Shown here in pieces: positions 1,872 to 63,727 of a stretch of DNA of 64,000 bases. Each line of letters begins with the position of its first letter. The stretch's first letter is position 1. The DNA is taken from the IMG/VR virus record IMGVR_UViG_3300031994_000001, positions 119,799 through 183,798 of that record; one strand, given 5' to 3'. Made by a program: the position numbers and the translations under genes. Under the pieces are notes generated by a model. It had not been told where the DNA came from and did no database searches. It was given only the letters and a program-made list of their open reading frames with translations. This DNA comes from a virus. Lineage: Duplodnaviria > Heunggongvirae > Uroviricota > Caudoviricetes.

Positions 1872-2361
1872 AATTAAACCAATGTTTTTGTATTTATAAA
1901 CCTATGTTTCCAACTGCTAAAGTATGCCGTCACCATTTGGAATTTACACTAATATAATAAAAATTTCCCAAAAACACTTAATTACATAAAGAGTTAAGTA
2001 TGTATAAAAATGCAACCCGTCTAAAAGGTTTAGATTTAAAAACGCCGCCCATATTTCTATATAATTACAAATTTTCTATTTTCCTCATATATAACTGATA
2101 CATAAGTTTTTCTGAAATCGGTTTTTCTGTCGGTGTTATGTGATTCCAGACTTGATATAAATAATATGGCAAAAAATCGGTAAATGATATTCATAAAGAA
2201 AAACGACAAGGGAATTGAACTTCTGAACGAGAATATGGAGAACATCAGACAGTTCGATGATGCCGAAATGCAACAGCGTGACGGCGTTTACAATATACAC
2301 AAGAAAGGCTGTGACTTTGTTGTATTCTGCACGATACCGACCGCAGCCGCAGCAATATTGA

Positions 2362-7179: not shown

Positions 7180-10100
7180 ATGAACATAACAACTGAATAT
7201 TGCGAAAACATCATATCAAACGGCAGCGGCTTGCTTGACAAGGCGAGCCGTATGCTTGTCCGTACAAACCCGAAACTCTCAACGAATGTCAAGATAATGA
7301 CAAACGGCGAGAAGATTTGGCTTGAAAGTTACGATGCCGACAAGAACTTGGCTGACAGCAAGTACAAGGCGTTTGTCGTGAGTTCGGACTCGAAGTACAA
7401 CAAGGATGTTGTTAAATTCTACGGAACGCTTGACACTGTTTCGGCATTCAGACCGTTGCAGCAGTATGACGATTTGTCAGTAAAGGACGTGTTTGATTCG
7501 CAGTATGAGACATTCTATCATTGCGGTTGCGAATACGTGAAGTCGCTTGACTATGACGAGCAGTTCGGATTTGTCGCCCCGTTGTGGATTGACGAAAAGA
7601 TACCCGAATACTTTGTCATATTCAAGGTGGAAGAGCCTTCTTATTTCAATCTCGTTGACAACGGGGAGGATAATTTGAGGGATATGAACTTCAAGACGGA
7701 CATACTTGACAAATGCACGATAGTAAAGACATTCTCTCTTAAAGAGGATTCCCCGATAGGCAAGTACATAAGGAACTATCGCAATCAAGACAAGTTCCCC
7801 GTGTCGCCTCTTTATGCCCGTATGGAAAAGGGCGGTTACATCTCGTTCAACGGCATATCATACAAGACGGGCGAGTTCACCGAAGCGCACGAACACGATT
7901 TTGAACGTATGTTTACCAAAGACGAGACCGTTACGGGATTCGACAATTTCATCACGGGCGGATTTGAGCGCAACGGCATAATCTGTGCTAACCTGCTCAA
8001 TTTGGAGTTTTTGTTTGACGACACAACTTCGGAGGAATACACGATAAACAGATATTTCGGATTGTACTGCAATATGGTCGCTGAAGGCACAGCCGACATT
8101 GACTATGCTGGATTGTACGGATGCGGCAATCTGTATTCAAGAAATGTAAAGAACTTCGACCAATACACGGTGTCGAAAGTCACTGCTTCAAACAATGGCG
8201 GCGTTTTGATACCCGTTGTTCAGCCGCAGGTGAACCAAGATGAAATACTTGACCTTATCTCACAGATTAACACCGAGAGAATCGCCAATCATCTAACGCC
8301 ATTGGAGGGCGAAGAGTTGGTTGAAAATGTCGGAAAAATATGCAATATTTCGGACATTTTGTTTCCTACTTGGGACAACATAAGCGCGGCAGACAATCCA
8401 AGTGCGGCGGATGTTGACGCAGGCGGTTCGCTTAACGGCTCTGTCCATTGCATTGTTGACAGACTTGGCAACATCCACAGCATAAGCAGGTCTAATTCAT
8501 ATCCAAACGGAATGATTAGACTGACCGACAAGAAAGTTGAGTTGACCGACTTCAACGGTTTTGTCAAGACGAACAGAAGCGTGACCTGCGAGTATGAGGA
8601 TAAGGCAACTCCGTCACAACTTGTGATAACCATAAACTCGGAAATTGAGGCATACACCCGTTTCACTTTGAAGCACGACAATCTCGGCGACATAGGATAT
8701 ATCGAATGCGGTGTCGTTTATGACGATGAAACGCAGGAGTTCCTTTCCGTTGCGGGTTGGTCTGACTATGATACATTCAGCGGCATAGGCGACTTGTCTG
8801 TTGTCGCGCAGGCATTGGCTGATTCGTTCAATGCTGTGTTTGAGAACGAAGGACTGCACGCATACTACTATGCAAACAATGTGGTGATTGAAGCCTGCAA
8901 TTCTTCCGACACTTATAATTTGTACCATATTGAATGTGAGAACACGACAAGCGTTCCAGTGACTTCTGTTGAAATATCAAACGGGGGTCGTTTCTGCGGG
9001 GCTAACGATTACTCACACATCAAGATTATGGAGATGTACTCGAATCTGTTGCAGGTCGGTGAATACCTGCCTACAAGGAGCAAGCGCGGTTATGGAAAGA
9101 TAATCGCCAAGACGATAGACTTCGAGAAGGCTACCATTGACGGCGACAGACTTGTTTTCAACGAAGGTCTGTACTATGACGTTCTTGTTGACGAGAACAA
9201 TGTTTTCGTGAACAGAACGAACACGGTTCGCGTGTATGACGAGTTCGACCTTATATACGGAAGACTGTCATTCTTCCCCGTACACGATTTTGACTTTCAA
9301 ACAACTACACCCGTTACACAATATGGCGACTTTGGCGAGTTGGAGTATGAACGCTGTTATCTTTCAGCGGACGGCAACGACACTTCGGAGGATGCCGAAG
9401 AGGAAGCAATGCGGGAGTATTCATTCGAGGTTGACGGCAATACGCTCACCATATATTTTGAAAATGACGATGACACCATTGTCGTTGACATTGACGGATA
9501 TGATGTGACGCAAGACCCCGATGACCCAGACACATTCATTGTGGAGATGATTATGACGCATTACAACCCGAACTATGTTCCAAGTGGCGAGGATACCAAT
9601 GTCGAACCCGACTTTGACTTCAGCACACTTACGAGCGATTTGGGTGACGGCTCTGTTTTGCGAAGCGAGTATATGAGGCTGTATGAGAACTTCAGCAACG
9701 ACTTTATGCTTCTGTCAAAGACTGTGCCTTATATCAACAAGTGGGTTTATCACGACAACGGATTCGATGTTAGGGAACGCAAATACAGACTGAACACCAA
9801 CCCCGTGTTCGGTATGAACTCGTTTGCGCCCGACCCTTACACATACAACGATGTAAGTACAAACCCCAACTGTTTCGGTTGCGAATGGTATTACATATTC
9901 GACAAATTCCCGCACAATGAGCCGTCAAACTTCGACTTTACAAATATGTGGAGTTACATAGGTGATGTATGCCCGATTGACAGCGGTTCTACTGCGGAGG
10001 AAACGCTTGAGCGTATGCTGCTTGACACAAAGACAAACTACTTCAATGTGTTCTTTGTCAGAGACCATATTGTTGACACAGCCGATGCCAACAACAAGGC

Positions 10101-12168
10101 GTTCTACGACACGCTTGACTATGTGAAAAAATATTCCCTCATAGAGAATGGTAGCGATAAGACCATCGCGGAGACATTCTTCCGTGGGGCGAAGATTGAG
10201 TTCTTGCAGAAAACCGACTATTCGGCGAAGATTGACAACAACATAAACACAATCAAAATCAAGTCCGACAATATGCTCAACGGATACAAGTTCACGTCAG
10301 TGATTGTTCCGATAGAGACGGACGGTGTTTTGGAGAATCCAAGGATTCGTGTCATAAGAAACGATGTGTTCAAATTCATCGTTATGGTGATATTCGTTGT
10401 CCGCAAGTACAAGGATGTATTGAATAGCGGTGAAAACAGCATACCGCAGTTCAATGCGGGCGACTTGACACGCTATCTGCTTTACAACCCGCAGAAAGTT
10501 CTTAATCCCGAAGCATACGGATTTGACAGCGATGACGATGCTTTGAGCGAGAATGGCATTTATGGCGGTGAGAGACGCATAACGGTTGGCGGTCGTGGAA
10601 AGGTTGTGAGCATAACGATAAACTCTCCGCACAAATTGAAAGGTGACGGAACGAACTTTATAAATGATTTTTCCGATGACAGCAGGGTTATGATTGTTGT
10701 CAAGGATTATTATGATGCAACACGTTTCAACATATTGAAACCAACGAATGTTGAGGACAACTGCAATATGGTGGTTGAGGAAATATTCGACAAGATTCAG
10801 ATGTCGAATACACAGCAGTATGCGCAGTACGCGAAGTATGTGTCGTTGGTTGATTATCTGACCCAAACCCTGCATTGGCAGCACTCGGACAATCTTTCAA
10901 TATCCTCAAACGGATTCGAGTATTGCATTGGTTACTGTGACGCTACTGTGTTTGCCGACTACTACAATTCCTGCGATTTCTTCAACATTGTGAACAATGT
11001 GAACTACACGCAGAAGGACGATGTTGTGTATATCCACGTTGACCAAAACGGGGTTGTTCGCAGAAGCGACAACAATGAGTACACATACGCATTGCGGTTC
11101 GTTATGCCCGCAGACAACGCCAAGTACGAGTACCTTGACTTCAGTTTTGACGGAGAGATTGTGTCGTATTTCGACAATCCGAAGTACGCATTCCGTATGC
11201 ACAGATACGGCGGTTGGTTCGAGCCTCTTACCAAACCCGTCATTTATTTCAAAGACCCGTTTGTCAAAGACGCTTTCAATGACCCGTACAATGAGAATCC
11301 CTGCGCGATAACCGTGACTGACACCGAGTATCTTTACAAGAAACTGTCATTGCTGACAACACGTTATCTCAACACGGCATTCGCATACAACTACAAGGGA
11401 TTCGGTATGGTGAAACAGTTGGCATACCATAGGGTGAACGACACGAACAATAACCCGTTCAAGTTGAAAGACGGAGACAAACCGCTGTACCCCGTGTCAA
11501 ACAAGTTCGCCGTAGGATATAGGGATGTCAATGTGTTCAACTCGTCTTGGGATTTGTGGTATTTTGTGAAAACAAACACCAATACGGACGAGCAGTTGGT
11601 ACACGGAACTTGCAGTATGCTTGAAAAATTCGCTATGCTCGGTTCTAAATGTATGACATTGCCCGACACGTTGAAGATAGAGGACTTCACGATAACCGAC
11701 TTGGTTGACGAGAATTACAAGTCTGACATTGAGCATACGGTGTTCCGTTCAGAAAAAAGCGGAAGCGTGAGTTATGTCATTATGGTTGAACGCAGGTTAA
11801 AGGCATATCTTCACGGAATATTGAAGGACTACTTCGCCCGCTATGTATTGGAATCCTGCTCATACGGCGACAGAGAAAGCATTGACGATGACATAGACAG
11901 ATACATTGAGCAGAACATAATACCTCTGTATATGTTCGACCATTTCGACTTGTATGTCAAGAAAACCCCAAATGGACTGAAACGCGAGATGAAATACGAC
12001 TATGTTGGTTCGAGCGATGCGGTCAAACTGATAAACGGACTTCGCCCCGACAACTCATTCGGTTTGAGTGTTGTTGATTACAGCGAGTTCGACAAGAAGA
12101 TTGTGCTTAATACAAAAGAGCAATATACCTACGAAATGGCGTTTACTCTTTATTTGAAGAAACGCTAA
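7180..12168 (+). CDS. giant protein (1662 aa); putative virion structural protein
   Basis: Uninterrupted ORF starting 19 nt after the previous gene; no recognisable catalytic motif; function inferred from size and context. Confidence 0.55.
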   Translation: MNITTEYCENIISNGSGLLDKASRMLVRTNPKLSTNVKIMTNGEKIWLESYDADKNLADSKYKAFVVSSDSKYNKDVVKFYGTLDTVSAFRPLQQYDDLSVKDVFDSQYETFYHCGCEYVKSLDYDEQFGFVAPLWIDEKIPEYFVIFKVEEPSYFNLVDNGEDNLRDMNFKTDILDKCTIVKTFSLKEDSPIGKYIRNYRNQDKFPVSPLYARMEKGGYISFNGISYKTGEFTEAHEHDFERMFTKDETVTGFDNFITGGFERNGIICANLLNLEFLFDDTTSEEYTINRYFGLYCNMVAEGTADIDYAGLYGCGNLYSRNVKNFDQYTVSKVTASNNGGVLIPVVQPQVNQDEILDLISQINTERIANHLTPLEGEELVENVGKICNISDILFPTWDNISAADNPSAADVDAGGSLNGSVHCIVDRLGNIHSISRSNSYPNGMIRLTDKKVELTDFNGFVKTNRSVTCEYEDKATPSQLVITINSEIEAYTRFTLKHDNLGDIGYIECGVVYDDETQEFLSVAGWSDYDTFSGIGDLSVVAQALADSFNAVFENEGLHAYYYANNVVIEACNSSDTYNLYHIECENTTSVPVTSVEISNGGRFCGANDYSHIKIMEMYSNLLQVGEYLPTRSKRGYGKIIAKTIDFEKATIDGDRLVFNEGLYYDVLVDENNVFVNRTNTVRVYDEFDLIYGRLSFFPVHDFDFQTTTPVTQYGDFGELEYERCYLSADGNDTSEDAEEEAMREYSFEVDGNTLTIYFENDDDTIVVDIDGYDVTQDPDDPDTFIVEMIMTHYNPNYVPSGEDTNVEPDFDFSTLTSDLGDGSVLRSEYMRLYENFSNDFMLLSKTVPYINKWVYHDNGFDVRERKYRLNTNPVFGMNSFAPDPYTYNDVSTNPNCFGCEWYYIFDKFPHNEPSNFDFTNMWSYIGDVCPIDSGSTAEETLERMLLDTKTNYFNVFFVRDHIVDTADANNKAFYDTLDYVKKYSLIENGSDKTIAETFFRGAKIEFLQKTDYSAKIDNNINTIKIKSDNMLNGYKFTSVIVPIETDGVLENPRIRVIRNDVFKFIVMVIFVVRKYKDVLNSGENSIPQFNAGDLTRYLLYNPQKVLNPEAYGFDSDDDALSENGIYGGERRITVGGRGKVVSITINSPHKLKGDGTNFINDFSDDSRVMIVVKDYYDATRFNILKPTNVEDNCNMVVEEIFDKIQMSNTQQYAQYAKYVSLVDYLTQTLHWQHSDNLSISSNGFEYCIGYCDATVFADYYNSCDFFNIVNNVNYTQKDDVVYIHVDQNGVVRRSDNNEYTYALRFVMPADNAKYEYLDFSFDGEIVSYFDNPKYAFRMHRYGGWFEPLTKPVIYFKDPFVKDAFNDPYNENPCAITVTDTEYLYKKLSLLTTRYLNTAFAYNYKGFGMVKQLAYHRVNDTNNNPFKLKDGDKPLYPVSNKFAVGYRDVNVFNSSWDLWYFVKTNTNTDEQLVHGTCSMLEKFAMLGSKCMTLPDTLKIEDFTITDLVDENYKSDIEHTVFRSEKSGSVSYVIMVERRLKAYLHGILKDYFARYVLESCSYGDRESIDDDIDRYIEQNIIPLYMFDHFDLYVKKTPNGLKREMKYDYVGSSDAVKLINGLRPDNSFGLSVVDYSEFDKKIVLNTKEQYTYEMAFTLYLKKR

Positions 12169-12513
12169 TCCTATAACATATTATGGCTATGAACGGATTT
12201 GGAATGTTTGTCGCGCTTATTGTCGCAGTGCTTTGCTTTTTCGCAAGTATGGACGATGATGACAACAGCGGGCAGGCTACTTCTTTTTAAGGTGCTTGAC
12301 TATCTTGACGACAGCAACGCAAACGCCGACAGTTATGACGCAGGCTACCATTGCAATCAGAACGGCAGTCCAACTGTAACATAGGAAATAAGTGACGACT
12401 GCTATTATGGCGATGATAATCAAGAACGCAATTATGCCGAGAGTAATCATATAAATAGTAATATTCTGCTTTATTTATCGGAACGCATTTATAACTTATA
12501 TATAACAAAAACT

Positions 12514-13101
12514 ATGAAAAATAAGAAAATGAAAATATTGAGTTGTTCCGTGTTCGGCGCACTCTATTTGTTGGTGAGCGTAATCAGTTTGATTTGCTCA
12601 ACGTATTTTTTCAAACTCGCCCACACGGGCATTATGAGTTGGGCTTTGGCAATCGGCTTCGAGTTGGGTGCTATGAGTTGCCTTCTCTCCACAATGGTAT
12701 TGCCGAGAAACAAGCAGGGTCTTGTTTGGGTTATGTTCGTCATACTTACGCTGTTTCAGTGTATGGGTAATATGTATGCTGCATACGTGAGCCTTGAAAA
12801 CTATATGGATTGGATTGATATGTTCGGTCTGAACGATATGGAGGAAATCTCGCAGAAGCGTGTTCTCGCAGCCATATCGGGTATAATCCTGCCTCTCGTT
12901 GCATTGGGCTTCATCAGAATAATGGCTGATATGCTGCAAAGCAACACGGAAGAATCCGAACAGCCGCTGCAAATTGAAGCACCCGCTGTCGGGGACACTT
13001 CAATCCAAGAGGAAATCCCCGTCAAAGAGGAAACCGAAAAGGTTGAGGAAAAAGTTGAAACAGAACCAGAACCCGCCAAAGAAGAGGAATCAAAAAAATA
13101 G
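12514..13101 (+). CDS. membrane protein (about 4 predicted TM helices) with an E/K/P/V-rich low-complexity tail; may continue into 13098-13430 by a -1 frameshift
   Basis: Hydrophobic segments LSCSVFGALYLLVSVISLI, IMSWALAIGFELGAMSCLL, VWVMFVILTLF and ISGIILPLVALGFI, then an acidic/lysine-rich tail ending EEESKK directly at an A7 run. Confidence 0.55.
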   Translation: MKNKKMKILSCSVFGALYLLVSVISLICSTYFFKLAHTGIMSWALAIGFELGAMSCLLSTMVLPRNKQGLVWVMFVILTLFQCMGNMYAAYVSLENYMDWIDMFGLNDMEEISQKRVLAAISGIILPLVALGFIRIMADMLQSNTEESEQPLQIEAPAVGDTSIQEEIPVKEETEKVEEKVETEPEPAKEEESKK

Positions 13102-13121
13102 AGCCGCTGATTGAACAACCC

Positions 13122-13430
13122 GTGGCAGTCAGCGGTGGTCGGCAAGCGGGGGATGAGGTTGCGGAGAAAACCGAAGTTGAATCGGTCTCCGAACCCGTTG
13201 TTGAGGAAGTGAAACCCATTGCTACTGAAACGCCTAAACCCGTTGAATCCCCGAAAGAGGAGGTCAAGAAAGAGGTAAAGAAAGAGGTCAAGAAAGAGGT
13301 GAAGCAAGAGGTGAAGCCTGCCCCAAAGAAAGAACTGACCAAACCCGTCAAAAAAGGTGACGATGAGTTCGTTACACCTGCGGAACGCAAGATGCTTACG
13401 GGCGGAAGCACATTTTGGAAACACGCATAA
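13122..13430 (+). CDS. E/K/P/V-rich low-complexity ORF with (EVKK)n repeats; probable frameshifted continuation of 12514-13101
   Basis: Same amino-acid composition as the tail of the upstream ORF; lies in the -1 frame relative to it; no independent ATG (the track start is GTG). Confidence 0.4.
   Translation: MAVSGGRQAGDEVAEKTEVESVSEPVVEEVKPIATETPKPVESPKEEVKKEVKKEVKKEVKQEVKPAPKKELTKPVKKGDDEFVTPAERKMLTGGSTFWKHA
13258..13318 (+). repeat. 12-nt tandem repeat (GAGGTNAAGAAA)x5 encoding EVKKEVKKEVKKEVKQEVK
   Basis: Read directly from the sequence. Confidence 0.7.
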
Positions 13431-13570
13431 TAAACCGAATATGATAACGAAATTGGTGAACGTGAAACTTAAAAAGAGCCTTGCCGAAAGAATCAAGGAT
13501 TTCATTTGCAGGGTACACGAATATTGGAGGAAGTTCGAACAGTCGCTTATTGACTACATAATGTCTTAAT

Positions 13571-13882
13571 ATGGGCGGTTTCGTGTATCTGATATGTGAC
13601 CCCGCGACCGATACATACAAGATAGGTCGCACAAAGAACAGCGTGGAAAAGCGTCTGAAGCAGATACAGACGGGCTGCTCCACGGAACTTTTCATTGTCA
13701 ATTACTATTACACGCAATACCCGAACCAACTTGAACAGATGCTTCACCGCAGGTTCAAGAACAAGCAGCAACTCAACGAATGGTTCAGACTTGAATCGGA
13801 CGACATAATTGGGTTCACGGATATTTGTGAGCATACAAACAACATTATCAAGGCTTTACATACCGAAACGGAAATTTATTAA
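13571..13882 (+). CDS. T5orf172 / GIY-YIG-like domain protein
   Basis: GGFVYLICDPATDTYKIGRTKNSVEKRLKQ ... EQMLHRRF ... NEWFRL matches the T5orf172 pattern (VY.L..P....KIG.T....RL..L ... LH..F ... EWF). Confidence 0.5.
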   Translation: MGGFVYLICDPATDTYKIGRTKNSVEKRLKQIQTGCSTELFIVNYYYTQYPNQLEQMLHRRFKNKQQLNEWFRLESDDIIGFTDICEHTNNIIKALHTETEIY

Positions 13883-13895
13883 AAAATTTTGCGCG

Positions 13896-13923
13896 TTTCG
13901 GATTTTTTTATTATATTATCACA
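13896..13923 (+). promoter_or_regulatory. conserved promoter-like motif, copy 1 (TTTCGGATTTTTTTATTATATTATCAC)
   Basis: One of five copies of GGAtTTTTTTATTATATT(A/G)nATTGTA-like elements, each 25-120 nt upstream of a + strand gene or operon (here the 14039-15364 operon). Confidence 0.45.
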
Positions 13924-14038
13924 GAAGGCTGTGTTGAAAGAAGCGGGCAGCAATTATGAACGAATTGCCAAAATTTGAAAGAACAACTTCTTGTTTGCAG
14001 TCTTTTAATAGGATTATTAACCCTTAAATTGATATAAT

Positions 14039-14302
14039 ATGGAAGATTTAGGAGCAACTGAAATGATGTCAAAGACAGAACCTATTGTCTGTGAAAAGTG
14101 TGGTTGTGACCGCTTTGTTCAAGTGACGCTTTTGAGAAAGGTGTCTCGTTTTGTAATCGGTGCGTCAGAAGACGGCGTTATTCCAATCCCCACATTCTCC
14201 TGCCAAAAGTGCGGACACGTGAACGAGGAGTTCCTGCCGAAAGGCTTGTCCAAGGTGGAAAAGAAGGAGGAAACACCGAAATCAAGTATCATAATGCCTT
14301 AA
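14039..14302 (+). CDS. small zinc-ribbon protein
   Basis: CEKCGC ... CQKCGH, i.e. two CxxC pairs. Confidence 0.5.
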   Translation: MEDLGATEMMSKTEPIVCEKCGCDRFVQVTLLRKVSRFVIGASEDGVIPIPTFSCQKCGHVNEEFLPKGLSKVEKKEETPKSSIIMP

Positions 14303-14314
14303 TCCCGTTACGCT

Positions 14315-15364
14315 ATGTTATACGGTCTTGACGACATAACGCTCATTCCCGCGAAGATAACGGACATTGATTCTCGTGCGGAGTGCGACCCGTTCTATCA
14401 CGACTATAACGACAAGGGCATATTCGGCAAGCATCTTCCGTTGCTTGCCGCCCCTATGAGTTCCGTGATTGACGAAAACAACTTCAACAAGTTCACCAAC
14501 TGTGGTATCAATGCCGTTGTTCCGAGAAGCGTTGATATTGAAAAACGCATTTCATTATGCAAGCACACATTCTGCGCATTCGGCTTGGACGAAATCAAAA
14601 CGCATTTCATTGACGATACACCGCTCGGATTCGGCAAGATGAGCGGGTTTCTCAATATGTATGTCTGCATAGACGTTGCCAACGGGCATATGCTGCGTGT
14701 GTATTCCGCTTGCAGGAAACTGAAAGACAAGTACAAAGACGGCATTTCCATAATGACGGGTAACATTGCCAATCCCGACACATACGCATATATTTGCGAC
14801 CGATATGAAGGTGCTGTTGATTATATTCGTGTTGGAATCGGTGGCGGTTCTTGCTGCACAACATCAGCCAACGCCGCAATTCACTATCCTATGGCTTCCC
14901 TCATTGAAGGCTGTTATACAGTAAGGGTTGACCGTGGAAACAATAATGTGGTATGCCCGTATATAGTTGCTGACGGCGGCTTTGATTCGTTTGACAAAAT
15001 CATCAAGGCTCTCGCCCTCGGTGCTGACTATGTTATGCTCGGATATGTCCTTGCGAAGTCGGAGGAGGCTTGCGGCAAAATTATTAGCGAGGAATATGTT
15101 GACGGTTGGCGCAGATTCCGCTATTACTACGGTATGTCAACGAAGAAAGCGCAAAAGGAAATGGGCAAGGGGGAACTGAAAACTGCGGAAGGCATTGAAC
15201 GCAAAGTCAATATCGAATACCCGATAGCGAAATGGGTTGAGAACTTCACGTCATACCTGCGTTCCGCTATGTCCTATATGGATGCCCGCAGCATTCTTGA
15301 CTTCATTGGCAGCGTGTGCTACGACAAAATATCGCCAAACGCATTCAAATCATTTTACAAATAA
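14315..15364 (+). CDS. guaC: GMP reductase (GuaC)-family IMPDH/GMPR TIM-barrel enzyme
   Basis: VCIDVANGH (E. coli GuaC has VCIDVANGY), VGIGGGSCCTTS (GuaC VGIGPGSVCTTR), IVADGG, GADYVMLG and YGMSTKKAQKE...AEG are collinear with GuaC. Length is 349 aa versus 347 aa for GuaC. Confidence 0.75.
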   Translation: MLYGLDDITLIPAKITDIDSRAECDPFYHDYNDKGIFGKHLPLLAAPMSSVIDENNFNKFTNCGINAVVPRSVDIEKRISLCKHTFCAFGLDEIKTHFIDDTPLGFGKMSGFLNMYVCIDVANGHMLRVYSACRKLKDKYKDGISIMTGNIANPDTYAYICDRYEGAVDYIRVGIGGGSCCTTSANAAIHYPMASLIEGCYTVRVDRGNNNVVCPYIVADGGFDSFDKIIKALALGADYVMLGYVLAKSEEACGKIISEEYVDGWRRFRYYYGMSTKKAQKEMGKGELKTAEGIERKVNIEYPIAKWVENFTSYLRSAMSYMDARSILDFIGSVCYDKISPNAFKSFYK

Positions 15365-15386
15365 CAATCATTAAAAATTTTAAGCA

Positions 15387-15800
15387 ATGTTTACATTATT
15401 AGTTATTGGAATCATTTTCATTGTGGCGGTTGCAGCAAGCATTCTCATTTCAAATTATTGCGACACGCACGAACACCGCTCTTGGCTTGAAGGTGTGATT
15501 GTGATGACCTTTATGGTGACGGTTATTTCGTTTGTTTGTCTTGTGTTCGCCGTAATATCCCTTGCAGGTGTCAAGAACGATTTTGAATTGTGCAAGGAGA
15601 AATACGCAAATGCCGAGAGAATTGTCGAACAGACTTCACAAGGCAACGATACAATCCCGTTCTATGAGGTTGACGACATTGTGTTGGAGACGAACAATAT
15701 GATTTCCGAACATAAGGTTATGTGCAACGACAAGTGGCGCGACCTTTGGCACTCCGAGGAAGTAGGCAGTCTCACACCCCTTACATTGGACGGCAAATAG
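15387..15800 (+). CDS. small membrane protein, paralog A (2 TM helices plus a conserved C-domain)
   Basis: Shares DFELCKEKY...N.MI.EH.V....KW..LW.SEEVGSL.P with the next gene. Confidence 0.55.
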   Translation: MFTLLVIGIIFIVAVAASILISNYCDTHEHRSWLEGVIVMTFMVTVISFVCLVFAVISLAGVKNDFELCKEKYANAERIVEQTSQGNDTIPFYEVDDIVLETNNMISEHKVMCNDKWRDLWHSEEVGSLTPLTLDGK

Positions 15801-15801
15801 T

Positions 15802-15880
15802 GTTGATAACTTTGTTGATAACTTTTTCTGAAAAAAGTGTTGAGCGTATAAAAAATTTTGTATTTTTGCAGCGTCAATCA
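15802..15880 (+). promoter_or_regulatory. about 80-nt promoter/operator element, copy 1: direct repeat GTTGATAACTTT x2 followed by a Bacteroidetes-type promoter (TGTTG ... TATTTTTG)
   Basis: Near-identical to 29360-29438. TATTTTTG at 15861-15868 matches the TAnnTTTG -7 consensus, with a TTG element about 20 nt upstream. Confidence 0.5.
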
Positions 15881-15907
15881 ATCAGTAATAATCAAAAATA
15901 AAAAGTT

Positions 15908-16336
15908 ATGTACACGGTTATTTTAATTTCGGTTTTAACAGTAGTATTGTTTATCGCAGGTGTTGTTTTTAGTCAAAAGGACAAATTTTACAGTGCGAAT
16001 TGGCCAGATGCGATGGCGGGTGTGTCATTAGCCCTTGCGGTTTTCGGGGCTTGTATGTTGATTATCATAGGAATCTCTTTAATCGGCAAGAAGTCGGATT
16101 TCGAGTTGTGCAAGGAAAAATACAATATCACAGTCGAACTTGTCGAATCGTACTATGAGGGTGAGACTGAAACCGACAAAGGCGTGTTCGAGTATGACCT
16201 GCGCAAAATGATTGTCGCCACCAACACTATGATTGCGGAGCATAGGGTTTATTCAAAGAACAAGTGGCTGAACCTTTGGTACTCCGAGGAAGTCGGCAGT
16301 TTGAAGCCGATTTCGTATGAAACTCTGAAAAAATAA
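15908..16336 (+). CDS. small membrane protein, paralog B
   Basis: Tandem paralog of 15387-15800 with its own strong promoter element. Confidence 0.55.
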   Translation: MYTVILISVLTVVLFIAGVVFSQKDKFYSANWPDAMAGVSLALAVFGACMLIIIGISLIGKKSDFELCKEKYNITVELVESYYEGETETDKGVFEYDLRKMIVATNTMIAEHRVYSKNKWLNLWYSEEVGSLKPISYETLKK

Positions 16337-16341
16337 CAACT

Positions 16342-16797
16342 ATGAAGAAATATGACGATACTGAAATAAGGAAAGTCAACGCCGAGTTGGAGGAGAAGTT
16401 TTCCAAGGAGCGCGACCAATGGCAGGAGTGGATTACAGAACTGCTTGATATGATTAAGCACGACAGCCAACTCACCGACTGTATGGTCAAGGGTCTTTCC
16501 TACCGTCAGAAAATCATTGAGAAGGTAGCCTATTACCGTCAGTCGCTCTACAAGCAGAAGTCGAAGTATGACGTGGTTCGAGCCGACAGATACAAACAGT
16601 ACACGGTTGAGGGCGACATAAAGTTCAATGCAACCGAAAAGAACGATGCCGTTACAGCGGACTTGACAGCCTCTCTGTACCGACTGAACTTGATTCAGAA
16701 CCAAATTGACTACCTCAACGAAACAAACCAAACTCTCACGAGTTTGCAGTATGCGATTAAGAACAAGATTGTAATTCTCACTGAACAAATTATGTAG
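16342..16797 (+). CDS. hypothetical protein (151 aa)
   Basis: ORF tightly packed in the operon; no recognisable motif. Confidence 0.45.
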   Translation: MKKYDDTEIRKVNAELEEKFSKERDQWQEWITELLDMIKHDSQLTDCMVKGLSYRQKIIEKVAYYRQSLYKQKSKYDVVRADRYKQYTVEGDIKFNATEKNDAVTADLTASLYRLNLIQNQIDYLNETNQTLTSLQYAIKNKIVILTEQIM

Positions 16798-16798
16798 T

Positions 16799-17122
16799 AT
16801 GAGAACTGAAGAAAAAAACGGAATCACCCATTACTATTTCTACCGAGAGGATTTGGAGAAAAAGACGACCCTCGAACTCATTTCGATTTTGAGAAGTCTT
16901 CGCCGAACCATTTGGAACACCGAGTGGGATGACATTGAGGAAGATTCCTTGAAGAATATGGAAGGCACTATGGTGGAGTTCAAGCGCGGGGACAATTTCC
17001 GCAACTACGCGGTGCTTTGGATTGTCAAGGACATTCTCGCCAACAGACCCCACATCAACAAATCAAAGCAGGAACGCAAGGCTATCCGCCAACAGAGTGC
17101 GAAACTGCATAAGAGAATTTAG
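16799..17122 (+). CDS. hypothetical basic protein (107 aa)
   Basis: ATG overlaps the previous stop (ATGTAGTATG); no motif. Confidence 0.45.
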   Translation: MRTEEKNGITHYYFYREDLEKKTTLELISILRSLRRTIWNTEWDDIEEDSLKNMEGTMVEFKRGDNFRNYAVLWIVKDILANRPHINKSKQERKAIRQQSAKLHKRI

Positions 17123-17131
17123 TTTGCGTGG

Positions 17132-17158
17132 TTTCGGAAATTTTTATTATATTATAAC
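17132..17158 (+). promoter_or_regulatory. conserved promoter-like motif, copy 2 (TTTCGGAAATTTTTATTATATTATAAC)
   Basis: Preceded by TTTGCGTGG, like copy 1 (TTTGCGCG); upstream of the 17221-21293 operon. Confidence 0.45.
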
Positions 17159-17220
17159 GAAAATGGTCGGCATTGCCGCCAAGTAATAAACCCAATTTAA
17201 TAATCAAAAATAACAAAGTT

Positions 17221-17895
17221 ATGTTTGAAAATTTGCAAAACACATTCAACGGAATGTTTGGTAAGGTAGCACCAGGTATGTGCCGCATTACTATGAACGG
17301 TAACATCGCTGTCAAAACGAGCGATGGTTACAAGTCCTACAACGTGGAACAGAAGCGTCTGACCAATGTCAACAGTTTCTGCTTCAACATCGGTGACGAG
17401 ATGTTCTTCGTCATTCCCACCAACAAGGTGCAGGTCGGCGACATTATTCTCGTCAAGGGCAAACCCAAATGCGTTGTGAGCGCAACGAAGGAATGCATCA
17501 ATGTCATTGACTACGAGAGTTCCGAAATGCGCCAAGTCATTCCCGAAAGACACGTCTTTATGGGCAGCACCTACTTCTATGGCAAGATTGTCTCTATGTT
17601 CGGCAACTCCTTCAAGAAAGGCAAAGGTCTCGGAAATGTTATGAAAATGATGATGATGAGCCAGTTGATGGGCGGCGGCAACAGCAACAACGCCAACCCC
17701 TTCGGACAAATGATGGCAATGTCTATGTTTATGGGCGGCAAGAACGATAACCCGTTTGAGGGTATGTTCGACTTCAACCTTGACGTGGACGATGACGATG
17801 ACGATGACGACAATGACGGTGACGAGACCGAGACCGTTCCCGCTGCCGCCCCTGCGAAAAAGTCAAGAAAAACCAAAAAAGTTGAGGAGGAGTAG
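17221..17895 (+). CDS. hypothetical protein with Met/Gly-rich and poly-Asp low-complexity C-terminus
   Basis: ORF from the first ATG (the track ORF begins at a TTG at 17173). C-terminus reads MMMSQLMGGGNSNN...DVDDDDDDDDNDGDETE. Confidence 0.5.
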   Translation: MFENLQNTFNGMFGKVAPGMCRITMNGNIAVKTSDGYKSYNVEQKRLTNVNSFCFNIGDEMFFVIPTNKVQVGDIILVKGKPKCVVSATKECINVIDYESSEMRQVIPERHVFMGSTYFYGKIVSMFGNSFKKGKGLGNVMKMMMMSQLMGGGNSNNANPFGQMMAMSMFMGGKNDNPFEGMFDFNLDVDDDDDDDDNDGDETETVPAAAPAKKSRKTKKVEEE

Positions 17896-17897
17896 TT

Positions 17898-18773
17898 ATG
17901 GGAAGCGGCAGTTGGACACCCTCATCTTATGCGTCATACTCTGTTGCCAACAAAAAGAGTTATGATGCCTCAACGCACCGCGTTAGCGGTCAAGTTTTCC
18001 ACAAGTCCTCTTTGGACGATTCTCTCAATCCGAGACTGTTCAGCATCCGTGAGTGCGTGAACTCCGAGGAACACCCCAACACTATCCCGATTATCCTCGC
18101 TCTTGACGTGACGGGTTCTATGGGTCGTTCCTGCAAGGAAACCGCCGAGGCACTTGGTGTCATTATGACGGACTTGTATAAAAAGTACAAGGACATTGAG
18201 TTCTGCATTATGGGTATCGGCGATTTGGCTTATGACGAAGCACCAATTCAAATGAGCCAATTCGAGAGCGATGTCCGAATCGCGGAGGCGTTGGACAAAA
18301 TCTTTATGGAACACGGCGGGGGCGGCAACGCCTACGAAAGTTACACCGCCGCGTGGTATATGGGTCTGCGCCGCACCTCCCTTGACCGTATCACGAAGAA
18401 CGGCAAGAAAGGTATCATCATCACTATGGGTGACGAACCTCTAAACCCCTATCTTCCCAAGGACGAGTTGAACTACGCCATCAAGGGCAGCGAGCAGGGC
18501 GACATTGACACGAAGCAACTCTACAAGGAGGCTTCCGAGAAATTCGACATCTACCACATCGCCGTCAAGGATGACCACAACTGTTACGGTCGTTATGCCG
18601 ACAGAATCAAAGAATCCTTTGGCGAATACCTCGGACAGAGATTGAAAATCTCTACTGTGAACGAACTCTCAAACACCATTACGGAGTGCATTGACGACTC
18701 CCTCGCCGCTGAAGGCGTTATGCCCGAACAGCCCGCCAATATGGTGAACGAGAACGGTGACATCCAATGGTAA
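17898..18773 (+). CDS. von Willebrand factor A (vWA) domain protein
   Basis: MIDAS-type LALDVTGSMG motif; preceded by GAGGAGGAG. Confidence 0.6.
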   Translation: MGSGSWTPSSYASYSVANKKSYDASTHRVSGQVFHKSSLDDSLNPRLFSIRECVNSEEHPNTIPIILALDVTGSMGRSCKETAEALGVIMTDLYKKYKDIEFCIMGIGDLAYDEAPIQMSQFESDVRIAEALDKIFMEHGGGGNAYESYTAAWYMGLRRTSLDRITKNGKKGIIITMGDEPLNPYLPKDELNYAIKGSEQGDIDTKQLYKEASEKFDIYHIAVKDDHNCYGRYADRIKESFGEYLGQRLKISTVNELSNTITECIDDSLAAEGVMPEQPANMVNENGDIQW

Positions 18774-18785
18774 AAATCTGAAAGT

Positions 18786-19901: not shown

Positions 19902-19902
19902 A

Positions 19903-20421: not shown

Positions 20422-20422
20422 T

Positions 20423-20650
20423 ATGGATTGGATTAGCGTAAAAGAAAGAATGCCGAATGACGGCGAGCGTGTTCTTGTTTGGAACAACAAGCAAGGTGAA
20501 CCCACATTGCAGGTTTACAACAAGGATTACGAATGTTGGGACACCGAGGATGGTGACGATTTTGATTTTCAAGTCGGTGCTGTTTGCGGCAACGGTGAGA
20601 AAATTGTGGAATATTGGATGCCCCTTCCCGAAAAGCCAAACAAACAGTAA
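20423..20650 (+). CDS. stand-alone DUF551-like domain protein
   Basis: MPNDGERVLVWNNKQGEPTLQVYNKDYECWDTEDGDDFDF...EYWMPLPEKP, paralogous to the C-domain of the previous gene. Confidence 0.5.
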   Translation: MDWISVKERMPNDGERVLVWNNKQGEPTLQVYNKDYECWDTEDGDDFDFQVGAVCGNGEKIVEYWMPLPEKPNKQ

Positions 20651-20909: not shown

Positions 20910-20912
20910 ACT

Positions 20913-21293: not shown

Positions 21294-21295
21294 AA

Positions 21296-21316: not shown

Positions 21317-21377
21317 GAGATACAAAAACGGTGTGACCGTTGATTGTGGCTTGTTGTTAATATTGGTTTGAAAAGGA

Positions 21378-21404: not shown

Positions 21405-21406
21405 AA

Positions 21407-26694: not shown

Positions 26695-26720
26695 TTTGGA
26701 TTTATTATATGATATTGTAG
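26695..26720 (+). promoter_or_regulatory. conserved promoter-like motif, copy 3 (TTTGGATTTATTATATGATATTGTAG)
   Basis: 70 nt upstream of the gp32-like gene. Confidence 0.4.
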
Positions 26721-30776: not shown

Positions 30777-30805
30777 TTTTTTTCGAGAAATTTTGTGTTG
30801 ATATT

Positions 30806-30830
30806 GATTTTTTTATTATATTGGATTGTA
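30806..30830 (+). promoter_or_regulatory. conserved promoter-like motif, copy 4 (GATTTTTTTATTATATTGGATTGTA)
   Basis: 22 nt upstream of the ATG at 30852. Confidence 0.4.
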
Positions 30831-47886: not shown

Positions 47887-47948
47887 TTTGCGGGCGTTTA
47901 TTTTTTCCGAAATTTTATTATATATTATAGTGAATAAGTATTTGTAAT

Positions 47949-63697: not shown

Positions 63698-63727
63698 TCC
63701 GATTTTTTTATTATATTAGATTGTATC
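63698..63727 (+). promoter_or_regulatory. conserved promoter-like motif, copy 5 (TCCGATTTTTTTATTATATTAGATTGTATC)
   Basis: 16 nt upstream of the ATG at 63743. Confidence 0.4.

What the first reader, a model, noticed from the sequence alone, without database searches (positions are those of the whole stretch)
13896..13923. Five copies of a conserved ~27-nt promoter-like element upstream of replication and nucleotide-metabolism operons
GGA(T/A)TTTTTTATTATATT(A/G).ATTGTA-like elements occur at 13896-13923, 17132-17158, 26695-26720, 30806-30830 and 63698-63727. Copies 1 and 2 also share an upstream TTTGCG(C/T)G. All are intergenic, on the + strand, 16-120 nt upstream of genes: the zinc-ribbon/guaC operon, the vWA/purA-like operon, the gp32-like SSB gene, a hypothetical gene, and the small gene preceding the clamp loader. 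The motif does not fit the host TTG/TAnnTTTG consensus. It may be recognised by a phage-encoded factor, giving an early/middle class regulon.
Basis: seen in the sequence. Interest (0 to 1): 0.55.

Follow-up and report, generated by a model that had tools for sequence, protein, structure and literature searches.

The report
Pre-late promoter class of jumbo phage
A roughly 20-base AT-rich sequence that recurs in front of replication, nucleotide-metabolism, DNA-methylase and lysis genes of an uncultivated 248-kb T4-like phage of Bacteroidota is very probably one of the phage's three promoter types, which is useful for annotation but an ordinary kind of feature.

Summary
All five elements are at the stated coordinates. 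I found two more in the window (47906-47926 +; 1949-1969 -) and one about 1.2 kb beyond its left edge. The consensus is nGGAwwTTTTTATTATATTa, often followed 1-3 nt later by ATTGTA. The 13-mer core gives 6 hits against 0.29 expected by chance. Seven of the eight sites are intergenic, and all eight point at the gene downstream.

Unsupervised k-mer counting of upstream regions finds three motif classes that share only one intergenic region:
- Class I is a host-type Bacteroidota promoter (TTG-N18-TATTTTTG) behind a GTTGATAAC double repeat.
- Class II is this element.
- Class III is TATAAATA, the T4 late consensus, in front of structural genes.

A class II-like element (core TT(A/G)TTAT(A/T)TT) also lies about 80-100 nt upstream of the gp32 gene in 12 of 13 relative loci (gp32 29-78% identical), while the flanks diverge.

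My reading is a pre-late (early or middle) promoter class. Promoter function is about 0.85 likely. Which polymerase or factor reads it is unresolved. No site has the host TAnnTTTG box, yet no sigma, MotA, AsiA or RNA polymerase gene was found in the 83 kb available. The phage-factor idea therefore remains untested. This is a new member of a known kind, of modest interest.

The parts
13899..13919 (+). Class II promoter-like element c1: CGGATTTTTTTATTATATTAT. It has TTTG (13887-13890) 20 nt upstream of TATATT. A CCGAAACG...CGTTTCGG stem ends at the GGA. It lies 121 nt before the ATG at 14039 (zinc-ribbon-like gene, then the GuaC-like gene 14315-15364).
17135..17155 (+). Class II element c2: CGGAAATTTTTATTATATTAT. 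It has TTTG 21 nt upstream of TATATT. It lies 67 nt before the ATG at 17221, which opens an operon that includes the PurA-like gene 18786-19901. It sits inside a co-directional gene cluster that begins at a class I promoter (15802).
26697..26719 (+). Class II element c3, with a shorter T-run: TGGATTTATTATATGATATTGTA. It lies 78 nt before the gp32-like SSB gene (26790-27731). It is conserved at the same place in relatives.
30804..30830 (+). Class II element c4: TTGATTTTTTTATTATATTGG followed by ATTGTA. It has TTTG 21 nt upstream of TATATT. It lies 29 nt before the ATG at 30852 (113-aa unknown protein, then a 511-aa Band_7/flotillin-like protein).
47906..47926 (+). It follows a strong terminator hairpin. 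It lies 24 nt before the ATG at 47949, the first gene of a block of five identified DNA-methyltransferase genes (47949-52949).
63699..63725 (+). Class II element c5: CCGATTTTTTTATTATATTAG followed by ATTGTA. It lies 25 nt before the ATG at 63743 (66-aa protein, then a gp44-like clamp loader). It sits in a divergent intergenic region opposite a TATAAATA site.
1949..1969 (-). It lies 79 nt before the ATG of gene 1296-1871(-), which is followed by the GH108 endolysin gene 760-1311(-). The same leader also carries a TATAAATA site 27 nt before the ATG.

Best explanation
The elements are the core of one of three promoter classes of a 248-kb T4-like jumbo phage that infects a member of the Bacteroidota. 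I call this one class II.

**Proposed anatomy (inferred).**
- TATATT serves as the -10/-7-type element.
- Directly upstream lies a conserved T-tract and GGA. Together these give nGGAwwTTTTTATTATATT.
- The start site lies about 6-8 nt downstream, in or next to the conserved ATTGTA block.
- A subset of sites also has a host-like TTTG about 20 nt upstream.

**Proposed role (inferred).** Class II drives the pre-late genes:
- gp32 and the clamp-loader operon;
- the purine-nucleotide enzymes;
- a DNA-methylase block;
- an unknown-gene/endolysin pair.

Some sites start transcription units after terminators or in divergent intergenic regions. At least one (c2) lies inside a unit that begins at a class I promoter, the way T4 middle promoters lie inside early units.

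**Mechanism I commit to.** Host RNA polymerase reads class II only after a phage-encoded specificity factor has been made. That factor could be a sigma-like protein or a sigma appropriator, and it lies outside the 83 kb I could see. Class II would then be a 'middle' class between class I (host sigma-A consensus, early) and class III (TATAAATA, late).

**Shown versus inferred.**
- Shown: the motif, its excess over chance, its position and orientation, its separation from classes I and III, and its conservation in relatives.
- Inferred: promoter activity (about 0.85), the start-site position, the timing, and dependence on a phage factor. The confidence score below applies to this specific mechanism.
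For: - **Excess over chance.** Six 13-mer hits against 0.29 expected.
- **Tight family.** Eight sites are set apart from everything else by a weight matrix, and all carry GA at constrained spacing.
- **Position and direction.** Seven of 8 are intergenic (P about 1e-6). All 8 are co-oriented. The motif ends 24-121 nt before the ATG.
- **Three classes.** Unsupervised 8-mer enrichment of upstream regions returns TATAAATA, TTTATTATAT and TTGATAAC. These occupy different upstream regions, except for gene 1871(-), which has classes II and III together.
- **Class III as a control.** It sits about 25-30 nt before the ATG of structural-type genes, for example the gp13-like gene. It equals the T4 late consensus, TATAAATA at -13 to -6 (PMC1524935).
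- **Class I as a control.** It carries a perfect host-type TTG-N18-TATTTTTG, whereas no class II site has TAnnTTTG.
- **Conservation in relatives.** Upstream of gp32 the element is kept at about -80 to -100 in loci with 78, 67, 58, 56, 55, 50, 49, 34, 33, 31 and 29% gp32 identity, while the flanks diverge.
- **Start-site constraint.** In two clades the element is followed within about 10-15 nt by a conserved TGTCC-N4-GGACA hairpin or palindrome and an AU-rich leader. This places the start site between the motif and the hairpin.
- **Genome-wide behaviour in relatives.** TTT[AG]TTATAT gives 33 hits there. Of these, 26-28 are intergenic, co-oriented and within 250 nt of an ATG. The same orthologue (peptidase M16) is preceded by it in the L131 phage and in the L136/L142 phage.
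- **Transcription-unit starts.** Terminator hairpins lie immediately upstream of c7 and of sites in relatives.
- **Host.** The evidence points to Bacteroidota:
  - the phage alpha-CTD domain is closest to the P. gingivalis RNAP alpha subunit, 8DKC (PMC11685472);
  - a Por_Secre_tail domain occurs in a relative;
  - leaders are A-rich and lack a Shine-Dalgarno sequence.
- **T4-like core genes.** gp32, a gp44-like clamp loader, UvsW and gp13 are present.
Against: - No transcription start site has been mapped. Everything is inferred from sequence.
- No sigma, gp55, MotA, AsiA or RNA polymerase subunit was detected in any of about 95 genes in 83 kb. This covers Pfam and PHROGs, the precomputed Pfam hits, and a T4 gp55 tblastn. 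The postulated factor therefore has no candidate gene.
- The fixed octamer resembles the host -7 box (5 of 6 specified positions in 3 sites), and 3 of 8 sites have TTTG at host-like -33 spacing. In more distant relatives the core reads TGTTATATT, an extended -10-like sequence. Unmodified host holoenzyme is therefore not excluded.
- One perfect copy lies inside a coding sequence, at codons S-E-F-F-I-I-L-L of a guanylate-kinase-like gene.
- The order of classes I and II in time is a guess by analogy with T4.
Confidence: 0.45

Rival explanations
1. These are early promoters read by the unmodified host sigma-A holoenzyme. The element is a strong promoter of the extended '-10/-7' type. TATATTag acts as a near-consensus -7 box. 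The T-tract acts as a spacer or UP-like enhancer. An optional TTTG serves as the -33 element. No phage factor is needed.
For: - TATATTAG/TATATTGG matches 5 of the 6 specified positions of TAnnTTTG in 3 of 8 sites.
- TTTG lies 20-21 nt upstream in c1, c2 and c4 (post hoc P about 0.002).
- Relatives carry TGTTATATT, which is like TGnTATAAT.
- No phage sigma or appropriator gene was found in 83 kb.
- There is a precedent. The extended tripartite middle promoters of the crAss-like phage phi14:2, which also infects a Bacteroidota host, are read by host-type RNA polymerase (bioRxiv 10.1101/2020.03.07.982082).
- The core is conserved across phages with only 29% gp32 identity. This fits a conserved reader such as host sigma-A.
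Against: - No site has the TTTG half of the -7 box. Position -6 is A in 6 of 8 sites, so the deviation is systematic.
- The same genome uses a perfect TATTTTTG in class I, so the phage does have canonical host promoters and keeps class II distinct from them.
- Five of 8 sites lack any -33-like TTTG.
- The sigma-70-type scan calls only 1 of the 4 sites in the scanned region, and weakly (9 of 12).
- Six copies are nearly identical over about 21 nt (24-31 bits). This is more than a housekeeping sigma normally requires.
Confidence: 0.3
2. These are promoters for a phage-encoded RNA polymerase. That could be a virion-packaged or early-made multisubunit or single-subunit enzyme, as in phiKZ/AR9-type jumbo phages or crAss-like phages.
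For: - The genome is jumbo-sized (248 kb).
- RNAP-encoding jumbo phages have early promoters that are about 10-nt, highly conserved, AT-rich motifs centred near -10 and detectable by bioinformatics (PMC7598289). This matches the form of class II.
- The motif is contiguous and about 20 nt long, with no fixed -35 partner.
- Two giant ORFs (1238 and 1662 aa) have no Pfam match.
Against: - No RNAP beta/beta'-like or single-subunit RNAP family was found in 83 kb.
- The 1238-aa giant ORF has no DxDxD string. The 1662-aa ORF has only two incidental ones, in acidic stretches with no RNAP-like context.
- The 1238-aa ORF matches a PHROG of unknown function and, weakly, a tail-needle family.
- The core genes are T4-like (gp32, gp44, UvsW, gp13; cyanophage T4-likes are the nearest cultured relatives). 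T4-like phages use host RNA polymerase.
- The genome also carries host-type promoters and TATAAATA late-type promoters.
Confidence: 0.08
3. The element is not itself a promoter. It is the binding site (operator or activator site) of a phage DNA-binding protein that coordinates a regulon whose promoters lie elsewhere in the same intergenic regions.
For: - The sequence is highly conserved over about 20 nt, and GGA is kept at fixed spacing.
- The window encodes an HTH protein.
- The 5'-leaders behind c1, c3 and c6 are long (about 80-120 nt) and could hold a separate promoter.
Against: - The element is neither palindromic nor a direct repeat.
- It is strictly co-oriented with the downstream gene (8 of 8).
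- At c4, c5 and c7 only 24-29 nt remain before the ATG, which leaves no room for a separate downstream core promoter.
- It contains a -10-like TATATT.
- The HTH-alphaCTD gene is linked to the GTTGATAAC repeats of class I, also in a 47%-identical relative.
Confidence: 0.08
4. The element is a transcription terminator tail, an RNA-level element, or a mobile or recombination cassette (PeSL-like). In that case it is only incidentally upstream of genes.
For: - c1 has a significant stem that ends at the GGA and is followed by the T-run (z = -2.5).
- c2 has the same arms (CGAAAC/GTTTCG), though its fold is no better than shuffled sequence (z = -0.01).
- c7 sits just after a terminator.
- From my own recollection of Arbiol et al. 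2010, not checked here: T4-type phages carry repeated promoter-plus-stem-loop cassettes.
Against: - Six of the 8 upstream regions fold no better than shuffled sequence.
- Among the six in-window sites with co-directional upstream genes, the conserved part is the AT-rich core, not a stem.
- c5 and c6 lie in divergent intergenic regions with no upstream gene to terminate.
- There is no Rfam match.
- No longer repeat surrounds the core.
Confidence: 0.04

Closest known systems
Phage T4 middle promoters (MotA/AsiA sigma appropriation)
   Same: - It is a phage-specific promoter class, distinct from both the host-consensus (early) and TATAAATA (late) classes of the same genome.
- It sits upstream of replication and nucleotide-metabolism genes (gene 32, clamp loader).
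- It is partly embedded in early transcription units.
- It has a good -10-like element without a canonical upstream hexamer.
   Different: - The sequence differs. T4 has (a/t)(a/t)(a/t)TGCTTtA-N11-13-TAtaAT (PMC1524935). Here there is a contiguous GGAwwTTTTTATTATATT and no MotA box.
- No MotA or AsiA homologue was found in 83 kb.
- The host sigma is the Bacteroidota type.
- The timing is unknown.
Phage T4 early promoters, and T4-type promoter/stem-loop (PeSL) cassettes
   Same: - These are highly conserved, extended promoters, far more alike than host promoters.
- They are repeated through the early region.
- Some are preceded by a stem-loop or terminator (c1, c2, c7).
   Different: - T4 early promoters keep the full host -35 and -10 consensus. 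Class II lacks the host TTTG of the -7 box and mostly lacks a -33 element.
- The stem-loop is not a general feature here.
T4 late promoters (TATAAATA; gp55/gp33/gp45)
   Same: It is a short AT-rich element that acts from the -10 region only. The genuine TATAAATA class is present in this same genome.
   Different: - Class II is TTATTATATT, not TATAAATA.
- It shares only one upstream region with TATAAATA sites (gene 1871(-)).
- It precedes replication and metabolism genes rather than structural genes.
Bacteroidota primary-sigma promoters (-33 TTTG / -7 TAnnTTTG)
   Same: - TA falls at the equivalent of -12/-11 and TT at -8/-7.
- Three of 8 sites have TTTG 20-21 nt upstream.
- The host phylum fits.
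   Different: - No site has TAnnTTTG.
- Five of 8 sites have no -33 element.
- Class I in the same genome shows what a canonical host-type promoter looks like here.
Early promoters of RNAP-encoding jumbo phages (phiKZ, AR9) and middle promoters of crAss-like phi14:2
   Same: - They are conserved AT-rich motifs near -10, found by bioinformatics upstream of early operons (PMC7598289).
- phi14:2 shows that Bacteroidota phages carry extended, phage-specific promoter motifs (10.1101/2020.03.07.982082).
   Different: - No phage RNA polymerase genes were seen here.
- The core gene set is T4-like, not phiKZ-like or crAss-like.
- The sequences are unrelated as far as the text of those papers allows comparison.

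Membership tests
Bacteroidota sigma-A (host) promoter | -7 box TAnnTTTG | tested here: not met
   None of the 8 sites has TAnnTTTG from 45 nt upstream to 45 nt downstream of ATTATAT. The best fixed-register match is TATATTAG or TATATTGG, with 5 of 6 specified positions, in 3 sites. The class I elements in the same genome have TATTTTTG.
Bacteroidota sigma-A (host) promoter | -33 TTTG/TTG about 19-21 nt upstream of the -7 box | tested here: inconclusive
   It is present at 20-21 nt in c1, c2 and c4 only (3 of 8). The binomial P is about 0.002, but the register was chosen post hoc.
T4 middle promoter (MotA/AsiA) | MotA box (a/t)(a/t)(a/t)TGCTTtA 11-13 nt upstream of the -10 element | tested here: not met
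   The aligned upstream sequences show no TGCTT at that position. The consensus is taken from PMC1524935.
T4 middle promoter (MotA/AsiA) | MotA and AsiA homologues encoded by the phage | tested here: inconclusive
   No MotA or AsiA family hit appeared in my Pfam and PHROGs scans or in the precomputed Pfam hits, which together cover most of the ~95 called genes in 83 kb.
T4 late promoter (gp55) | TATAAATA about 6-13 nt upstream of the start site | tested here: not met
   The class II core is TTATTATATT. TATAAATA forms a separate class with 26 sites in 83 kb, in other upstream regions.
Sigma-70-type promoter (TTGACA-N17-TATAAT, or extended -10 TGnTATAAT) | Both hexamers at 16-18 nt spacing, or TG one base upstream of the -10 element | tested here: not met
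   The consensus scan of 12001-32000 calls only c3, at 9 of 12. In this genome the base triplet before TATATT is TAT, not TGT. Relatives do have TGTTATATT.
Jumbo-phage virion-RNAP early promoter | A conserved AT-rich ~10-nt motif near -10, upstream of early operons | tested here: met
   The form matches the description in PMC7598289. The position relative to the start site is inferred, not measured.
Jumbo-phage virion-RNAP early promoter | Phage-encoded multisubunit RNA polymerase genes | tested here: inconclusive
   None was found in 83 kb (the family scans above; DxDxD check). The rest of the genome was not available. The core genes are T4-like.
Any promoter | Transcripts start a few bases downstream of the element | not testable with these tools
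   No RNA data are available. Indirect evidence: the motif ends 24-121 nt before the ATG. In relatives, a conserved 5' hairpin or palindrome begins about 10 nt after the element upstream of gp32.

The most novel reading that the evidence does not exclude
Class II marks a middle-transcription system that does not use MotA or AsiA. It would be shared by a large, uncultivated family of T4-like (jumbo) phages of Bacteroidota. In this reading, host RNA polymerase, whose sigma-A normally needs TAnnTTTG, is re-targeted to TT(A/G)TTATATT-N3-TTGTA promoters by a so far unknown phage factor. That would be a new case of sigma appropriation or replacement in a phylum where none is known. The lineage-specific HTH + RNAP-alpha-CTD protein in the window could belong to the same takeover circuit.
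Probability: 0.2. Interest if true: 0.65.

Novelty: new member of a known kind. Interest (0 to 1): 0.3.

Why it matters
If the reading is right, the motif gives a ready operon and timing map for an uncultivated family of T4-like jumbo phages from rumen- or gut-type metagenomes. Class I, II and III sites together partition the genome into putative early, pre-late and late units.

It also flags an open question. Bacteroidota RNA polymerase has unusual promoter requirements, and how phages redirect it is almost unstudied. A conserved class of non-host-type promoters in front of replication genes is the natural handle for finding the responsible factor.

As a practical matter, class II elements could be tried as phage-inducible or strong promoters for Bacteroides or Prevotella genetics.

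In itself, though, a phage-specific promoter motif is an expected feature.

Tried and rejected
- **Exact 16-mer scan of IMG/VR.** It returned 119+ unrelated single hits, including giant-virus bins. These are chance matches in AT-rich DNA, and only L030 was a true relative. It told me nothing and cost a scan.
- **nhmmer with a site alignment.** It is too insensitive for a 20-nt motif. I replaced it with a weight matrix.
- **Protein-guided scans.** The metagenome-contig scan gave one relative. The genome-contig scan gave none.
- **The 462-kb uncultured phage LR756500** (43% gp32 identity). Its GC content is 25%, so the motif regex hits coding DNA at random. I rejected it as a comparator.
- **Terminator or hairpin hypothesis.** Only c1, and weakly c2, have a stem that ends at the GGA. 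Six of 8 upstream regions fold like shuffled sequence.
- **Sigma-70 scan.** It does not call the sites.
- **Rfam and tRNA scans of the window.** They found nothing, so there is no riboswitch in the long leader of the GuaC operon.
- **T4 gp55 tblastn against all DNA held in the session.** No hit.
- **Is the HTH-alphaCTD protein the class II factor?** Its gene is preceded by the class I GTTGATAAC repeats, both here and in a 47%-identical relative. That links it to class I instead.
- **Is the PurA-like protein a PurZ (2-aminoadenine genome)?** The PDB search hits only chains named adenylosuccinate synthetase, and weakly. Unresolved.
- **The 1-mismatch core hit at 22691-22703(-).** It is an inverted-repeat end of a TnpB element, not a family member.
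- **AACC[CT]-TTAAA motif before some start codons.** It is not enriched overall: 11 of 96 genes against about 8 expected.
Full report
**1. The observation**

The five elements are present exactly where stated. The core TTTTTATTATATT, allowing up to one mismatch, occurs 6 times in the window. Dinucleotide shuffles give a mean of 0.29, and 0 of 100 shuffles reach 6.

Four of the five listed copies carry the exact 13-mer. Copy 3 (26697-26719) has a shorter T-run.

- 1949-1969 on the minus strand (exact 13-mer), upstream of the minus-strand gene 1296-1871.
- 47906-47926 on the plus strand, upstream of a DNA-methylase gene block.

I extended the sequence by about 9 kb on each side. The right-hand flank comes from the source contig itself. 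The left-hand flank comes from a contig of another assembly that is identical to the window over their 11.3-kb overlap. This gave 82.8 kb and an eighth, perfect copy 1.2 kb left of the window.

The regex T{3,}ATTATAT finds exactly these eight sites and nothing else. GA was not part of the regex, yet all eight are preceded by GA. The G lies 8 nt before ATTATAT in six of them. The consensus is nGGAwwTTTTTATTATATTa. In c3, c4 and c5 it is followed after 3 nt by ATTGTA. In c6 and c8 it is followed after 1 nt by AGTGTA or ATTGTG.

A weight matrix gives these eight sites 16-31 bits, and the next best hit in 82.8 kb scores 13.6 bits. First-order Markov simulations give about 0.8 hits at 14 bits or more per 83 kb. 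The matrix was trained on the sites, so the independent test is.

The sixth hit (22691-22703, minus strand) is one arm of a perfect 15-nt inverted repeat that flanks a TnpB gene. It is not a member of the family.

**2. What the genome is**

The window is part of JGI contig Ga0247608_10000043 (248,464 bp). Near-identical contigs occur in several other metagenome assemblies. There is no close relative among deposited phage genomes.

By gp32, the nearest records are an uncultured 462-kb phage (43%) and T4-like cyanophages (29%).

Genes identified in or next to the window:
- gp32, a gp44-like clamp loader, UvsW and a T4 gp13-like neck protein;
- GuaC-like and PurA-like enzymes, and a guanylate-kinase-like gene;
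- five N6/N4-type or related DNA methylases in a row;
- a GH108 endolysin and collagen-like fibre proteins;
- a TnpB element.

Three lines point to a Bacteroidota host:
- The phage's RNAP alpha-CTD-like domain is closest, among solved structures, to chains 9n9p and 8DKC. 8DKC is the P. gingivalis RNAP alpha subunit (PMC11685472 identifies 8DKC).
- A relative encodes a Por_Secre_tail domain.
- Leaders are A-rich and lack a Shine-Dalgarno sequence.

**3. Three motif classes**

I called genes with a codon-usage score and collected 38 upstream regions oriented with their genes. Counting 8-mers in them, with no prior, returns three families:
- TATAAATA, in 14 regions;
- TTTATTATAT/TTATTATA, in 7-8 regions;
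- TTGATAAC, in 4 regions.

*Class III (TATAAATA)* has 26 sites. Most lie 25-30 nt before the ATG of structural-type genes and are co-oriented with them. The sequence is identical to the T4 late consensus, which sits at -13 to -6 (PMC1524935).

*Class I* is a roughly 73-nt element present four times in the 82.8-kb extended sequence, two of them in the window (window coordinates 15802, 29360, 65231 and 72878). Its sequence is GTTGATAACTTTGTTGATAAC, then T/A tracts, then TTG-N18-TATTTTTG-CAGCG. This is a perfect host-type -33/-7 promoter behind a double repeat.

The classes occupy different upstream regions. The only overlap is gene 1296-1871(-), which has class II 90 nt upstream and class III 27 nt upstream.

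**4. Position and direction**

Seven of the eight class II sites are intergenic. Intergenic DNA is 10.4% of the sequence, giving a binomial P of about 1e-6. All eight point at the downstream gene.

The motif ends 24-29 nt before the ATG at c4, c5 and c7, and 67-121 nt before it at c1, c2, c3 and c6.

The contexts differ:
- c7 follows a strong terminator.
- c5 and c6 lie in divergent intergenic regions, opposite or next to class III sites.
- c2 lies inside a co-directional cluster that begins at a class I element.
- c8 lies inside a guanylate-kinase-like gene. It is spelled by the codons S-E-F-F-I-I-L-L of a conserved kinase segment. It may be an internal promoter for the downstream phosphoesterase/nuclease genes, or a coding coincidence. 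I cannot tell which.

**5. Relatives**

gp32 has 76 homologues in the large protein collection. I obtained DNA around 13 of them.

Upstream of gp32, about 80-100 nt before the ATG, a class II-like element is present in every locus except one (L137, 38% identity). The flanking intergenic sequence diverges:

| gp32 identity | Loci | Sequence upstream of gp32 |
|---|---|---|
| 100% (window), 78%, 67% | window, L139, L131 | GGATTTATTATAT-gat-ATTGTA; GGATATTTATTATAT-acc-ATTGTA; GATTTTTTTATTATAT-gat-ATTGTC |
| 55-58% | L135, L140, L141, L138 | GAATTTATTATTTT, followed by GATATTGCA in L135/L140; the second block is degenerate in L141 and L138 |
| 49-50% | L136, L142 | TTTTTGTTATATTAA |
| 29-34% | L143-L147 | TTTGTTATATTTAGTTTGT(A/G) |

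In the 55-58% and 29-34% groups, the element is followed within about 10-15 nt by a conserved TGTCC-N4-GGACA hairpin or palindrome and then an AU-rich leader. This recalls the arrangement of the T4 gene 32 translational operator, which I state from my own knowledge of T4. It places the start of the gp32 mRNA between the element and the hairpin.

Genome-wide in these loci, TTT[AG]TTATAT gives 33 hits. Of these, 26-28 are intergenic, co-oriented and within 250 nt of an ATG. About 1-2 would be expected from the intergenic fraction and a random strand. L135/L140 and L136/L142 are near-duplicates, so the hits are not all independent.

The same orthologue, an M16 peptidase, is preceded by the element in the L131 phage and in the L136/L142 phage. 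Other downstream genes include NUDIX and glucosaminidase genes.

That condition is not met. Only c1 and c2 share a longer context (TTTGCGYG(G)TTTCGG plus an upstream CGAAAC arm). c3 and c5 share an upstream AAATTTTTTCAT. Nothing extends further.

**6. Which polymerase reads it?**

This is not settled.

Against plain host sigma-A:
- No site has TAnnTTTG.
- The equivalent of position -6 is A in six of eight sites.
- Five of eight sites lack any -33-like TTTG.
- The same genome uses textbook host promoters in class I.
- The sigma-70-type scan calls only c3, and weakly.

For host sigma-A:
- The fixed octamer TATATTAG/TATATTGG matches 5 of 6 specified positions in three sites.
- c1, c2 and c4 have TTTG 20-21 nt upstream (post hoc P about 0.002).
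- The more distant relatives read TGTTATATT, an extended -10-like sequence.
- The crAss-like phage phi14:2, which also infects a Bacteroidota host, has extended phage-specific middle promoters read by host-type polymerase (10.1101/2020.03.07.982082).

For a phage factor:
- The class is distinct from class I.
- The sites are nearly identical within this genome.
- The T4 analogy fits. Replication genes sit behind a non-host-type, non-late promoter, partly inside early units.

Against a phage factor:
- No candidate gene was found. No sigma, gp55, MotA, AsiA or RNAP subunit appears in the family scans and precomputed hits, which cover most of the ~95 called genes.
- About 165 kb of the genome could not be read with the tools, so this absence is weak evidence.

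A phage RNA polymerase is unlikely but not excluded. The form of the motif resembles the early promoters of RNAP-encoding jumbo phages (PMC7598289). However, the gene core is T4-like, and both host-type and T4-late-type promoters are present.

**7. The one transcription protein in the window**

Gene 29452-30261 encodes an HTH_17 domain fused to an RNAP alpha-CTD domain. The family is tiny, with 10 homologues among 5.8 billion proteins. Nine of them keep both domains, and the most distant (33% identity) shows only the alpha-CTD.

Its gene is preceded by the class I element. The same is true in a 47%-identical relative on another 192-kb contig. I therefore link this protein to the GTTGATAAC repeats of class I, which are centred roughly 70 nt upstream of the inferred start. 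It could act there as an autoregulator or as a surrogate alpha-CTD activator. I do not link it to class II. This is an inference from co-conservation only.

**8. Verdict**

- The promoter reading is well supported indirectly (about 0.85).
- Assignment to a pre-late class is reasonable.
- 'Middle, dependent on a phage factor' is my preferred mechanism (0.45). 'Early, host sigma-A alone' comes next (0.30).
- This is a new member of a known kind, phage-specific promoter classes of the T4 type, found in an uncultivated Bacteroidota phage family.
- Interest is modest at 0.3. The main value is as an annotation key and as a handle on how phages redirect Bacteroidota RNA polymerase.

Noticed in passing
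window sites starting at 2156(+), 3365(+), 12450(+), 26356(+), 28810(+), 45327(+), 52958(+), 1898(-), 22642(-), 26298(-), 56049/56099(-), 58097(-), 62728(-), 63656(-): TATAAATA, identical to the T4 late-promoter consensus, occurs 26 times in 83 kb. Most sites lie 25-30 nt upstream of, and co-oriented with, structural-type genes: a giant ORF, a collagen-like fibre protein and a gp13-like neck protein. This implies a gp55-type late system, but no gp55 gene was found in the accessible DNA.
   Followed up: partly
window 15802-15873 and 29360-29432 (further copies at window-equivalent 65231 and 72878; L131 1340 and 10916; L148 9887): A roughly 73-nt conserved element: GTTGATAACTTTGTTGATAAC, then T/A tracts, then TTG-N18-TATTTTTG-CAGCG. 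It is a perfect Bacteroidota-type promoter behind a double repeat that looks like an operator or activator site. It precedes the HTH-alphaCTD gene, both here and in a 47%-identical relative.
   Followed up: partly
window 29452-30261 (+): This protein fuses an excisionase/MerR-like HTH_17 domain to an RNA polymerase alpha C-terminal domain. The latter is closest to Bacteroidota RNAP alpha (P. gingivalis 8DKC, E = 3e-11). Only 10 homologues exist among 5.8 billion proteins, and nine keep both domains. It may be a surrogate alpha-CTD transcription factor. As far as I know, nothing like it has been described.
   Followed up: partly
window 26720-26789; L140, L141, L138 and L143-L147 upstream of gp32: The gp32 leader is strongly conserved. 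Its last ~30 nt are identical between phages with 67% gp32 identity. In two clades it starts with a TGTCC-N4-GGACA hairpin or palindrome followed by an AU-rich stretch. This is reminiscent of the T4 gene 32 autoregulatory translational operator.
   Followed up: partly
window 22688-24163: A TnpB (IS605 OrfB/Cas12f-like) gene, 22694-23950(-), is flanked by perfect 15-nt inverted repeats (AAAAATCTAATAAAA / TTTTATTAGATTTTT). The element is absent from otherwise near-identical strain contigs (L002, L003), so it is a recent insertion.
   Followed up: partly
L148 16137-17744 (contig Ga0310690_10000099, a relative): A CRISPR-like array of about 25 copies of a 33-nt repeat (GTTGAATGGCTATGTTTGTATGCTATTTACAAC, period 64-66 nt). 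It lies directly downstream of a 776-aa ORF (L148 13689-16019) that has no NCBIfam match. The GTTG...CAAC repeat ends recall type VI-B repeats. This may be a phage-borne compact CRISPR effector.
   Followed up: partly
L132 12504-12527 (window-equivalent about -1193 to -1213, minus strand): A perfect class II copy (CGGAATTTTTTATTATATTAT) lies inside a guanylate-kinase-like gene. It is encoded by the codons S-E-F-F-I-I-L-L, 140 nt before the next gene. It is either an internal promoter or a coding coincidence.
   Followed up: partly
window 47949-52949: Five tandem DNA methyltransferase genes (one hitting PHROG methyltransferase families, four N6_N4_Mtase) lie behind a single class II element and a terminator. 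A 311-aa gene with no family hit (50414-51349) is interspersed among them. This is an unusually large anti-restriction block.
   Followed up: no
window 14315-15364 and 18786-19901; L132 12198-12668: The phage encodes a GMP-reductase/IMPDH-like enzyme, a divergent adenylosuccinate-synthetase-like enzyme and a guanylate-kinase-like enzyme. The PurA-like protein matches PDB chains named adenylosuccinate synthetase only weakly (E = 4e-6). Whether it is a PurZ-type enzyme, which would imply a 2-aminoadenine genome, was not resolved.
   Followed up: partly
window 3445-7161 and 7180-12168: Two adjacent giant ORFs (1238 and 1662 aa) have no Pfam match. They hit only PHROGs of unknown function and, weakly, a tail-needle family. 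They sit behind a TATAAATA site, so they are presumably virion proteins.
   Followed up: no
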